Program-made: the position numbers and the translations under genes | Assembly (NCBI GenBank): GCA_032718475.1 | Contig: JAUCBJ010007930.1 | Coordinates: 57,724 to 121,723 of the forward strand | DNA: 64,000 nucleotides | Source: Nemertoderma westbladi | Taxonomy: Eukaryota > Animalia > Xenacoelomorpha | Direction: 5' to 3' | The notes under the pieces: model-generated | Seen by the model: only the letters and a program-made list of their open reading frames with translations | What the model was told of the DNA's origin: nothing | Databases searched by the model: none | Shown here: positions 20,919 through 25,756 of the stretch, one piece after another | Position numbering within the stretch: the first letter of the stretch is position 1 | Layout: each line of letters starts with the position of its first letter

Positions 20919-23900
20919 CTTTATAGAAACATTGTTTAAATTCGGCGCACGGAAATAGTTTGTGTAGAAACTTAATCGGCTTCCGAGAACTTCCTCCCTC
21001 CACATTCTCGTTCCAAAGTTCTAGAATATCGTCACTGGGACGACGGCTAACGGTGACACCAGCAAGACGATCTCCTCTCGCCATATTACACGCGAACTGT
21101 TCGCCAATAACGGCCAGCAATAGATCCCGCCATACATGGTCCTAAATGTAAATAACCTCAATAACAGATCCCGCCATACACGGTCCTAAATGTAAATAAC
21201 ATCAATAACAGATCCCGTCATACACGGTCCTAAATGTAAATAACCTCAATAACAGATCCCGTCATACACGGTACTAAATGTAAATAACCTCAATAACAGA
21301 TCCCGCCATACACGGTCCTAAATGTAAATAACCTCAATAACAGATCCCGTCATACACGGTACTAAATGTAAATAACCTCAATAACAGATCCCGTCATACA
21401 CGGTCCTAAATGTAAATAACCTCAATAACAGATCCCGTCATACACGGTACTAAATGTAAATAACCTCAATAACAGATCCCGTCATACACGGTCCTAAATG
21501 TAAATAACCTCAATAACAGATCCCGTCATACACGGTACTAAATGTAAATAACCTCAATAACAGATCCCGTCATACACGGTCCTAAATGTAAATAACCTCA
21601 ATAACAGATCCCGTCATACACGGTACTAAATGTAAATAACCTCAATAACAGATCCCGTCATACACGGTCCTAAATGTAAATAACCTCAATAACAGATCCC
21701 GTCATACACGGTCCTAAATGTAAATAACCTCAATAACAGATCCCGTCATACACGGTACTAAATGTAAATAACCTCAATAACAGATCCCGTCATACACGGT
21801 CCTAAATGTAAATAACCTCAATAACAGATCCCGTCATACACGGTACTAAATGTAAATAACCTCAATAACAGATCCCGTCATACACGGTCCTAAATGTAAA
21901 TAACCTCAATAACAGATCCCGCCATACACGGTACTAAATGTAAATAACCGCAATAGCAGATCCCACCATACATGGTCCTAAATGTAAATAACCTCAATAA
22001 CAGATCCCGCCATACACGGTCCTAAATGTAAATAACCTCAATAACAGATCCCGTCATACACGGTACTAAATGTAAATAACCTCAATTAGGGATGTCCCGG
22101 AATCGATATTTTGATTCCGGCCGGAACCGGAATTCAACATGCCGGAATATTCCGGCCGGAATTCCGGCCGGAACCGGAATTTTCTATAATTAGTGAAATA
22201 CACTAAATGACCCATAAAATTTTATAATTTTTTGTGAAACAAATGAATTTTTTTAATTTGTAAAGCTAAGTTTGATAATGTGATGAACCAGAACCTTGGT
22301 GGAATTAAAGTGGGTGGAGTGGAGAATGACCTCGACAGTGACATGTTATTCGAACCAAAACAATAAACGAGGCCAATAAATAGTACATGTTACAGTTTAA
22401 TTATTGCTGGGAATAAATAGATTTACGGTGAGAAATGGCTTTGCTGTAAAAAGAATTAAAACTACTATATTATGCAGTACCTACGACGCAGGACTGAACT
22501 AACGACAACTCGCACGACCTGTACGTATTGTAATAACGTTTTATATTAGATTTAGGTTAGAGTAGAAATTGTAATTGTGTAATACTGTATTTGTATCCAA
22601 GTAACATACCCTAAAGGACCCCCATGGAATTAAGCTGCAAATCTTTAGGGGTCATCCTATATGTTGCGTCGGACAATACCAATCATAATATTATCTATCA
22701 TATTATTTAATAATTAATTCAAAGTAAAATAATATAAAAAATCAATGTAAAATATTGTAAGATCAATCTAAAAAACGTCATTTTATAAGCAAATTGGAAA
22801 AACCACTCGTTAAGGCCCGTCCGTGCTCCACTGGTAAGTCTTATATTATATAGGCCTAGTCTTAGTCAGAATAAATTATGGAACACGTTGGTTTTAATGG
22901 GAGCGTCTCCACTGGTAAATCGTATCGTAAGTTACGACCTATGAGTCGAAAGTGATTATGTCCCATGTTACATCTTTTACCACATGACTCATGTGTTATA
23001 TCCGGTAAGAGACCTGTGATTGGTTACTTTGGGTATAAATATGCAGTAAATGTGAGACGTATCTTATATTTTTTATCAAATGACTTATGACTTGTGTTAC
23101 CAATGGAGCAAGGAGGCATTCATTTTGACATTCTGACCAGTGGGGCACGAGCCTATTGATGCGTTTCATTAGTTAATGTAAATTACGATGGTTATTGTGG
23201 ATTGTATATGAATACTACTGAAGTGGTGTAACATATGGTGGGACCATTTTAGTTTGATTACCAGGTGAATTATTTTTGGAAATGTGTTACATATACCCAT
23301 CAAGACTGCATTCACTTTAATAAACTAAACAGGGTGGCTGAGAATTTTCCCTCGTTAGATAGGTTAGTTAGGTTCCACCTTGGTGCATGGTAATAGTGGT
23401 TGCATTGAATTCCAATCTATCTGGAGGTCGTGGGTTCGATCCCAGCATGTTGGCCAAGGCAGTTTTCGATTTAGCACGAATGGTTTGAAGCTTGAAGGAG
23501 CTACCCATGGGGCATCTATGCCTTGCATCCTTAAATGTTAGCTCTAACGGTCGAAGAAAACTTCATTTCTATACTGAAAAGTATTTGAAAAGTATTTTAA
23601 TCTAATTGGTAATAATGTTTAAAAAATATATAAATGTTGATAATAATTTAACAAACTAATTGCAACTATCAAACTAGTTAGGAACCTGGTAATTCCGGTA
23701 AAATTCCGGCCGGAATTGACCCCATTCCGGCAATTCCGGCCGGAACCGGAATCGGGCAAAAACCGCCGGAATTCCGGCCGGAACGGAATTCCGGGACATC
23801 CCTAACCTCAATAACAGATCCCGTCATACACGGTCCTAAATGTAAATAACCTCAATAACAGATCCCGCCATACACGGTACTAAATGTAAATAACCTCAAT

Positions 23901-25756
23901 AACAGATCCCGCCATACACGGTCCTAAATGTAAATAACCTCAATAACAGATCCCGTCATACACGGTACTAAATGTAAATAACCTCAATAACAGATCCCGT
24001 CATACACGGTACTAAATGTAAATAACCTCAATAACAGATCCCGTCATACACGGTACTAAATGTAAATAACCGCAATAGCAGATCCCACCATACATGGTCC
24101 TAAATGTAAATAACTCCCGCCACTTCTATCCCCTCCCACTAACCGTCTGCTCGTTATTAACTTTCATCTTCCAGTATCCACCATCCCTGTTCTCAACCTC
24201 TTCCCAAAGTGGTCTTCTCTCTCCGCGCATTAAATGGTAACTGTGTCTCAAACTCAATGTCGATACGGGGGGAATGTTGTTAAAAACTCGCCAAAAACTC
24301 TGCAAAATTTAATAGGGAAACAATCATAGTTACTATACAAACATACGCGTAAGTAATAAGTAAATAGTACCAACTAACCAAATATATTATTATTAGTGTG
24401 TTATTAATATGTCAATTTATCATTATATCTTACTAATATCTCAAAAGTGAGAAATGAAGTTATTGCTTTAGAATGAATTGAGTGTACCTATCAGAATATG
24501 AGGCATTCGCGGACAGGGTTTCTGGGGATGAATGTTAAGTTTAACCTACTATACCGGTACCCCAAACTGTAAATAAAAAACATTTAGGAGGATCGGAATG
24601 TGTTGGATTCTATTTACCTGAACTGTAGAAACCGTGTAAACTTTCCGAAGATTCGCGGTATATTCCGCAGCTGTTGTTCCACGAACGGTTCTGTAATGAA
24701 TTATTATAATGTATTATTAGACAAGGATTAGTTAGGGTTTCTTTATGGTTAATACAAGGGCGGTTAATGCACATCCACCCCACCCACAAACTATCCATCT
24801 GTTGATCGGATTGGTTGATGATGAATCATCGATAGGTTACGTGCGTAATGACAGGTGTGCCGAGCACATCAGTTTGAATTGAAGGAAGAAGTTTACGAAA
24901 GTTGTAGGTTACACTAAACCAACTTAAAAATTAAATTTTAAATTATGTATTGGGAAACAAATGCTGAACACATTTTTCGAAGTTCCATTTATCCATACAG
25001 CCACAGCCATAGCCCATCCACAAACAAGAATGCATAATGGAAGATCGGAGAACACTGTGATAATACTGTACCGGCAATATATTGTCAACATTATAGTTTT
25101 AATTAGGATTGAGACACGATTAACGAAAATAATAGTCAAACAAAAAATATAATTATTTGATAAAACAGTCGAAAAGATGAAATAAGAACCAGTATTCTGA
25201 GTTTTGATCGGACTGTGGACTGACTACCAACAGAAGGCCTATAGCATATTTTGTGTGGCTAGGAATTGGTAGGCCTATTCCTGTATCAGTGTATTCTAGT
25301 TCAGTAGTTCACTATTAATATGTATTGTATCATGAACGGCAGAGCAGAACGGTGGCATAAAACAGTACCAGAGAACCGGTAACATGATATGACGTGATAT
25401 ATGCAGATATGATATTATAGCATTATCTGCTACCACTGTCACTGTAGGCCTACTGTACTACCGTACCAGACCACAATGCACAGATAGACAGACAGTATTC
25501 ACTATCAGACTATTATTATATCATACAGCCCAGCCTACCTATCGAACCAAAATGTCCACGGGGTGTTGAGAGGTACGCTTTCCTCAGAAACATCTTCATG
25601 TAAAGTCAAAATATTTGGAAATTCGTAATCAACTTCACTACCGGTAGCTCCGCTGGAATCATGGTGTTCAACTGGACTCGCTCCACTGGAGTCGTGAGGT
25701 TCGGATGTCTGGGGAGAATTGGCTTGGTTGTTTGACCAGACAGGATGACCAGACAT
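20919..25756 (-). CDS. EIF4E3: Class III translation initiation factor eIF4E3; exons 25756-25539, 24690-24618, 24299-24144, 21141-20919; terminal exon not identified
   Basis: Spliced translation [48 protein letters not shown]...[15 protein letters not shown]...GGYWKMKV...|[16 protein letters not shown]...FYK; GT-AG introns with consistent phases; Tyr at the Trp56-equivalent position as in class III. Confidence 0.92.
22814..23153. mobile_element. Possible PIF/Harbinger-like MITE nested in the hAT element
   Basis: ggcccgtccgtgctccactggt ... accagtggggcacgagcc imperfect TIRs; taa/tat flanks. Confidence 0.45.
23372..23575 (+). mobile_element. tRNA-derived SINE nested in the hAT element
   Basis: A-box-like tggtgcatgg (23381) and B-box ggttcgatccc (~23433) followed by a non-tRNA body. 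Confidence 0.55.

What the first reader, a model, noticed from the sequence alone, without database searches (positions are those of the whole stretch)
21121..24143. eIF4E3 splice acceptor amplified ~28 times as a minisatellite of decoy 3' splice sites
Seen: the 44-bp unit equals the last 15 nt of intron 3 (gttatttacatttAG) plus ~29 nt of exon 4. The join uses GTTATT, present in both the exon (GCC GTT ATT) and the intron. The first AG lies only 44 nt from the exon-3 donor (24143-24100), probably the ancestral mini-intron. Only the last acceptor (21142) leads into the intact exon ([16 protein letters not shown]). Most copies change TGG to TGA (GAC CGT GTA TGA), and 44 is not a multiple of 3. 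Inference: the spliceosome must skip ~28 near-identical acceptors, or re-splice via donor-like GTATGA/GTTATT in the unit. Otherwise the array acts as a copy-number-tunable poison-exon (NMD) rheostat on a cap-binding translation factor, or shows intron growth by junction duplication in progress.
Basis: partly seen in the sequence, partly recalled or inferred. Interest (0 to 1): 0.85.

Follow-up and report, generated by a model that had tools for sequence, protein, structure and literature searches.

The report
Splice-acceptor "mirage" repeat in eIF4E3
A 44-base piece spanning an intron end and the next exon's start is repeated 28 times inside an intron of an animal's eIF4E3 gene, but the one spliced transcript assembly seen joins to the last, genuine splice site, so this is likely a tolerated repeat of a kind already named "mirage" in lancelets rather than a control dial.

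Summary
The repeat is real. Intron 3 of an eIF4E3 gene (24143-21142, minus strand) holds 29 identical 15-nt acceptor ends and exactly 28 units of 44 bp; 20 of 28 carry TGA. One spliced contig from another sample (depth 358) joins exon 3 to the last acceptor, and no contig of that run carries a unit. A second individual's DNA also has the array, so it is not a misassembly. All 28 decoys would give premature stops, so decay could hide a leak; a rheostat is neither shown nor excluded. The intron position is shared with a distant eIF4E3: the array enlarged an old intron. This matches the "mirage" minisatellites of lancelets (PMC3087553) and mirrors human donor-side repeats (PMC1557585). The scan has already noted the same thing in other animals and, far larger, elsewhere in this genome (unchecked notes). 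Verdict: a modest new member of a known kind.

The parts
25539..25756 (-). eIF4E3 exon 1, coding part (5' UTR extends to at least 25872)
   Evidence: X4 contig covers 25539-25872
24618..24690 (-). eIF4E3 exon 2 (73 nt)
   Evidence: joints skipping 848 and 318 nt, CT..AC on + strand
24144..24299 (-). eIF4E3 exon 3 (156 nt), donor at 24143
24100..24143 (-). Non-repeated 5' part of intron 3 ending in the first decoy AG (44 nt); its 3' part resembles exon 4 bases 10-23
23805..24099 (-). Upstream block of the 44-bp array (decoy AGs 24056 to 23836; seventh unit cut by the insertion)
22087..23804 (.). 1,718-bp non-autonomous DNA transposon, hAT-like: 17-bp perfect terminal inverted repeats, 8-bp target-site duplication (22079-22086 and 23805-23812), longest stop-free frame 64 codons
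   Evidence: family label from recalled hAT features
21142..22086 (-). Downstream block of the array (21 decoy AGs, 22066 to 21186) ending in the genuine acceptor at 21142
20919..21141 (-). eIF4E3 exon 4 (223 nt); its first 20 nt are the array's last partial unit; donor at 20918. Exon 5 lies outside the window

Best explanation
A 44-base tandem repeat of the intron 3 end and exon 4 start fills intron 3 of eIF4E3, the one spliced transcript assembly joins exon 3 to the last acceptor, and the repeat is likely a tolerated 'mirage' minisatellite with no regulatory job. Steps: (1, inferred) slippage or unequal crossover between short look-alike stretches on either side of the junction duplicated it; (2, shown by the unit classes, mechanism inferred) ordinary minisatellite turnover grew and homogenised the array, and a transposon then landed in it; (3, shown in one run) exon 3 joins the last AG; (4, inferred) the last AG wins because it alone is followed by the full exon and is closest to the strong exon-4 donor (exon definition), since the intron-side signal is identical in decoys; (5, predicted) any leak to a decoy gives a premature stop and is degraded; (6, inferred) decoys stay intact because the array keeps copying the one acceptor that selection must keep intact.
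For: 839-nt X4 contig at depth 358 runs exon 1-2-3 into true exon 4 and on into exon 5; 0 of the 2 X4 contigs laid and 0 of the 2 hold a unit. The 15-nt acceptor end is invariant in 29 of 29 copies and 3 of 28 decoys share 59 nt of upstream context with the real one, so choice is unlikely to rest on intron-side sequence. 28 of 28 decoys give stops 102 nt or more before the exon 4/5 junction. Transposon insertion in this haplotype and apparently a second, independent one in run X2 fit an unconstrained array. Intron position is shared with L001. Published mirages behave the same way (PMC3087553, PMC3902484).
Against: Only one RNA-like run, held as contigs that drop rare forms; no raw reads. That this RNA sample carries the array is inferred from shared alleles, not seen. 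All 7 variable sites fall in the exon-like part and none in the acceptor part (P about 0.054 by length), which selection on decoys could also give. Some human donor-side arrays do use the one or two nearest pseudo-sites (PMC1557585 introduction). Steps 4 and 6 were not tested.
Confidence: 0.75

Rival explanations
1. Leaky array acting as a copy-number dial: a sizeable share of transcripts use decoy AGs, are destroyed by nonsense-mediated decay, and array length sets eIF4E3 output.
For: Decoys are sequence-identical acceptors, 15 of 28 with the same first exon base as the real one; 28 of 28 lead to premature stops, so the leak would be invisible in steady-state RNA. Human CBS and 6-16 arrays use extra pseudo-donors.
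Against: No unit-bearing contig in X4 though the gene's contig has depth 358 and a depth-15 contig was kept in the same run. TGA is one spread variant. No link to array length was measured.
Confidence: 0.1
2. Stepwise removal: the weak donor-like site in each unit (GAG|GTTATT, just before each acceptor end) lets the intron be cut in several pieces or lets 29-nt micro-exons form transiently, with the same final mRNA.
For: 24 of 28 units end in GAG|GTTATT; it matches a recalled donor consensus at 6 of 11 places, as many as the real donors of exons 1 and 3. An unchecked note proposes multi-jump removal for a larger array in this genome.
Confidence: 0.07
3. Needed spacer: the non-repeated part of intron 3 is only 44 nt (perhaps about 30 if its 3' part is exon-derived), too short to splice well, so the array is now the body of the intron and cannot collapse to zero.
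For: 44-nt unique segment; the gene's other introns are 848, 318 and over 20,900 nt; the array was seen in all three haplotypes examined.
Against: Some animals splice introns of about 32-58 nt routinely and optima differ by species (PMC4040987 passages); this species' short-intron limit could not be measured.
Confidence: 0.08

Closest known systems
Lancelet 'mirage' minisatellites (Adh3, globins BflGb6 and BflGb9, troponin C, PGBD5). PMC3087553 and PMC3902484, passages read; the original Adh3 paper not read
   Same: Tandem copies of an intron 3' end plus the start of the next exon (as in BflGb6), unit within the 10-160 bp range reported, splice signals kept, normal mRNA made, border units differing from the middle ones.
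   Different: Another animal and gene; 28 units against 3 and 6 in BflGb6; split by a transposon; length variation between alleles not measured here.
Human F7 intron 7 37-bp VNTR and the CBS intron 13, 6-16, LMNB2 and PDGF arrays. PMC1557585, abstract and introduction read
   Same: Minisatellite whose end unit spans an exon-intron border; identical pseudo-sites mostly silent; the site next to the exon is used.
   Different: Those are donor-side arrays explained by 5'-to-3' scanning; here the used site is the last one transcribed, so such scanning does not explain the choice.
Human CBS 844ins68 allele, as described in one passage of PMC1802585; primary paper not read
   Same: Duplicated 3' splice site at an intron/exon junction; the downstream copy is chosen.
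   Different: One extra copy, not 28; G runs between the sites were shown to steer the choice there, untested here (each unit has one GGG, as does the real exon).

Membership tests
Mirage minisatellite | Tandem repeat whose unit spans an exon-intron border of the host gene | tested here: met
   15 nt intron end + 29 nt exon-like, 28 units
Mirage minisatellite | Copies keep splice signals | tested here: met
   29 of 29 acceptor ends identical
Mirage minisatellite | Normal splicing goes on | tested here: met
   One contig, one run: exon 3 joined to the 21142 acceptor; rare forms not visible
Mirage minisatellite | Concerted turnover with distinct border units | tested here: met
   Six unit classes, two making 19 of 28; alternating pairs; first and last two units of rarer classes
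Mirage minisatellite | Length varies between alleles | tested here: inconclusive
   Array present in X2 and X3; contig depth is not a copy number; different transposon junction in X2
Poison exon / decay-coupled regulation | Alternative form carries a premature stop | tested here: met
   28 of 28 predicted
Poison exon / decay-coupled regulation | Alternative form is actually made and regulated | tested here: inconclusive
   Not seen in X4 contigs; no raw reads, no decay block
Recursive splice site | AG directly followed by a GT donor | tested here: not met
   AG is followed by GACC or TACC in 28 of 28 decoys
Intron gain by tandem duplication | Intron position is new | tested here: not met
   L001 has a GT at the same codon boundary
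eIF4E class III (eIF4E3) | Closest solved relative is eIF4E3 | tested here: met
   4b6u best for exon 3 (E 2e-20) and exon 4 (E 1e-12), next best 3e-10 and 1e-4
hAT-type non-autonomous element (insertion) | 8-bp target duplication, short terminal inverted repeats, no transposase | tested here: met
   defining features recalled, no repeat library searched

The most novel reading that the evidence does not exclude
The array is a heritable, length-variable dial on a cap-binding factor: decoy acceptors draw off a share of transcripts into decay in proportion to unit number, and because only 44 nt of the intron is unique the gene can no longer shed the array.
Probability: 0.08. Interest if true: 0.6.

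Novelty: new member of a known kind. Interest (0 to 1): 0.2.

Why it matters
On its own, little: it adds one more mirage. It is a tidy natural test case for 3' splice-site choice, since 28 identical acceptors come before the used one and the intron is short enough (3 kb, 1.3 kb without the transposon) for a minigene, unlike the 30-50 kb arrays noted elsewhere in this genome. If a length-dependent leak were found it would be an acceptor-side expression dial. The density of mirages in this genome (unchecked notes) is the larger question.

Tried and rejected
No whole genome held, so no genome-wide intron-length or transposon counts. Protein search with exon 4 found 0 of 67 candidates (weak evidence). 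No RNA holder listed by record; X4 was recognised as spliced only on laying it. Unit pattern in metagenome contigs: 0. Related loci: 4 found, only L001 an eIF4E3 gene, and it ends before exon 4. Idea that the 37-bp array at 9498-18819 is a copy of the exon-5 acceptor: rejected, exon 5 begins AHQSHVAFEG and its best match in the window has 12 of 30 mismatches. Misassembly: rejected as to presence (units in X1, X2, X3), unit number unverified. Copy number from contig depth: not usable (ratios differ about tenfold between X2 and X3 at 21123-21185). Paper searches: eIF4E3 + tandem repeat + intron gave 6 listings, none on this by title or abstract start; two VNTR/acceptor searches gave 1 unrelated and 0; one search gave 3 listings, not read. 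No supplements read.

Full report
Gene. On the minus strand four exons (25756-25539, 24690-24618, 24299-24144, 21141-20919) with GT/AG borders read as one open frame. Exons 3 and 4 hit Pfam IF4E and have eIF4E type 3 (4b6u) as best solved relative by a wide margin. Exon 3 ends KMKVNNEQT and exon 4 starts [16 protein letters not shown], phase 0. Intron 3 is 24143-21142, 3,002 nt.

The array. The 15-nt acceptor end occurs 29 times on the minus strand, all within intron 3, first AG at 24100, last at 21142. The repeat finder gives two blocks, 23803-24114 and 21122-22086. Between them lies a 1,718-bp insertion (22087-23804) with 17-bp perfect inverted ends and an 8-bp target duplication; its longest stop-free frame is 64 codons. 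These are the marks of a non-autonomous hAT-type element (label recalled; no library searched). Without the insertion and one target copy the array is 1,232 nt, exactly 28.0 units. The 28 exon-like parts fall into six classes; TGA replaces TGG in 20 of 28 and the first base after AG is T in 13 of 28. All 7 variable sites are in the 29-nt exon-like part and none in the 15-nt acceptor part (P about 0.054 by length alone).

Origin. The unit follows exon 4 for about 20 nt, then departs by substitutions and a net one-base loss before GTTATT. The 44-nt segment before the first AG is not a unit, but it shares an 8-nt exact match with the exon start (168 of 20,000 shuffles reach this), extending to 12 of 14 bases including the GTTATT position. 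So either that match seeded the duplication or this part of the segment is an older exon-derived copy; the ancestral intron cannot be read off, and the '44-nt mini-intron' is unproven. A distant eIF4E3 locus, L001, has a GT at the same codon boundary, so the intron predates the array: growth of an intron, not gain of one.

What the RNA shows. Six runs were listed, none on record as RNA; four were laid. X4 proved spliced: one 839-nt contig, depth 358, covers exons 1-3 and skips 848 and 318 nt at canonical ends; its word share of 0.23 equals the exon-only share of 0.227. At the end of exon 3 it continues with letters specific to the true exon 4, not to any unit. In one search the same contig covers 20919-21142 with one difference, runs into exon 3 on one side and into a further exon reading AHQSHVAFEG on the other. 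X4 depth is 0 over the first unit (24056-24134) and the last (21159-21185); 0 of 2 contigs laid in each call hold a unit. That the X4 animal carries the array is inferred: it shares five exon-1 variants with a haplotype in X2/X3 whose X3 contig runs past the first decoy AG, and an exon-4 variant with an X2 contig that runs into the last unit.

The array in other DNA. Unit contigs are abundant in X1 (possibly the source), X2 and X3 (one other sample), with two further haplotypes running into the array, so it is not an assembly artefact; the depths are not copy numbers. One 75-nt X2 contig (depth 50) joins a unit to the same transposon end at a different place in the unit and in the opposite orientation, which suggests a second, independent insertion; one contig only.

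What decoy use would do. Exon 5 is not in the window, so exon 4 is internal. Use of any of the 28 decoys gives a stop at least 102 nt before the exon 4/5 junction, with or without TGA, which by the usual rule (recalled; it varies among invertebrates) would trigger decay. Steady-state RNA therefore cannot separate precise choice from leak plus decay. TGA is one variant spread by turnover and adds no evidence of design.

How the last AG is likely chosen. The intron-side signal is identical; 3 of 28 decoys share 59 nt upstream with the real site, while none shares more than 12 nt downstream. The difference lies on the exon side: full exon sequence and nearness to a strong donor (8 of 11 matches to a recalled consensus). 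Exon definition is the simplest reading; it is inferred, not tested. No decoy AG is followed by GT, so canonical recursive splicing is out; a weak donor-like GAG|GTTATT in 24 of 28 units leaves stepwise removal as a minor possibility. The decoys' perfect state needs no function: an array that keeps exchanging with the one selected acceptor would keep them intact (inference).

Comparison. Notes of this scan pointed to lancelet 'mirages' and I read the passages. PMC3087553 describes minisatellite-like duplications of an intron 3' end plus exon start in globin BflGb6 (6 and 3 units in two haplotypes), cites Adh3 units of 10-72 bp, and reports no interference with splicing; PMC3902484 says the same of Adh, troponin C and PGBD5. 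PMC1557585 covers donor-side human arrays, some silent and some using the nearest one or two pseudo-sites. PMC1802585 notes that in CBS 844ins68 the downstream of two duplicated acceptors is chosen. Unchecked notes list acceptor arrays in mussel, urchin, abalone, cephalopod, annelid and clam genes and arrays of hundreds to about 2,100 units elsewhere in this genome; 16 of 19 notes on this genome fit the words searched. I found no paper on an eIF4E3 array in the one search for it.

Verdict. Real, correctly spotted, incompletely described, and ordinary for this genome: a new member of a known kind. Tolerated mirage 0.75, leaky dial 0.10, needed spacer 0.08, stepwise removal 0.07. Interest 0.2.

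Noticed in passing
window 9498-18819: 9.3-kb array of about 252 copies of a 37-bp unit inside eIF4E3 intron 4; the unit has a TTTAG on the gene's strand but is not a copy of the exon-5 start. Origin unknown.
   Followed up: partly
window 4242-5990 (-): Intron-free LIM-domain reading frame (583 codons stop to stop) nested on the same strand within eIF4E3 intron 4, which is over 20.9 kb because exon 5 lies beyond the window.
   Followed up: partly
window 22087-23804 and run X2 at 24105: The same transposon family appears to have inserted into the array twice independently: here, and in X2 five bases before a decoy AG end in the opposite orientation (one contig).
   Followed up: partly
window 28000-30218: 2.2-kb array of a 22-bp unit (11-bp sub-period) containing a donor-like GTGAGT on the + strand; no host exon identified.
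   Followed up: no
window 31283-35224 (-): 1,314-codon frame with a weak reverse-transcriptase match (below Pfam cut-off) preceded by about 61 copies of a 15-bp coding repeat.
   Followed up: no
window 37284-37613 (+), 39351-41039 (-), 42480-43274 (+): Caveolin, CCDC97-like (with a 36-bp coding repeat, 12.8 copies) and Pex19 matches each within one long uninterrupted frame.
   Followed up: no
window 25136-25905: Strong difference between haplotypes: a 231-nt deletion in intron 1 and several insertions in the 5' UTR in X2/X3/X4 relative to the window.
   Followed up: no
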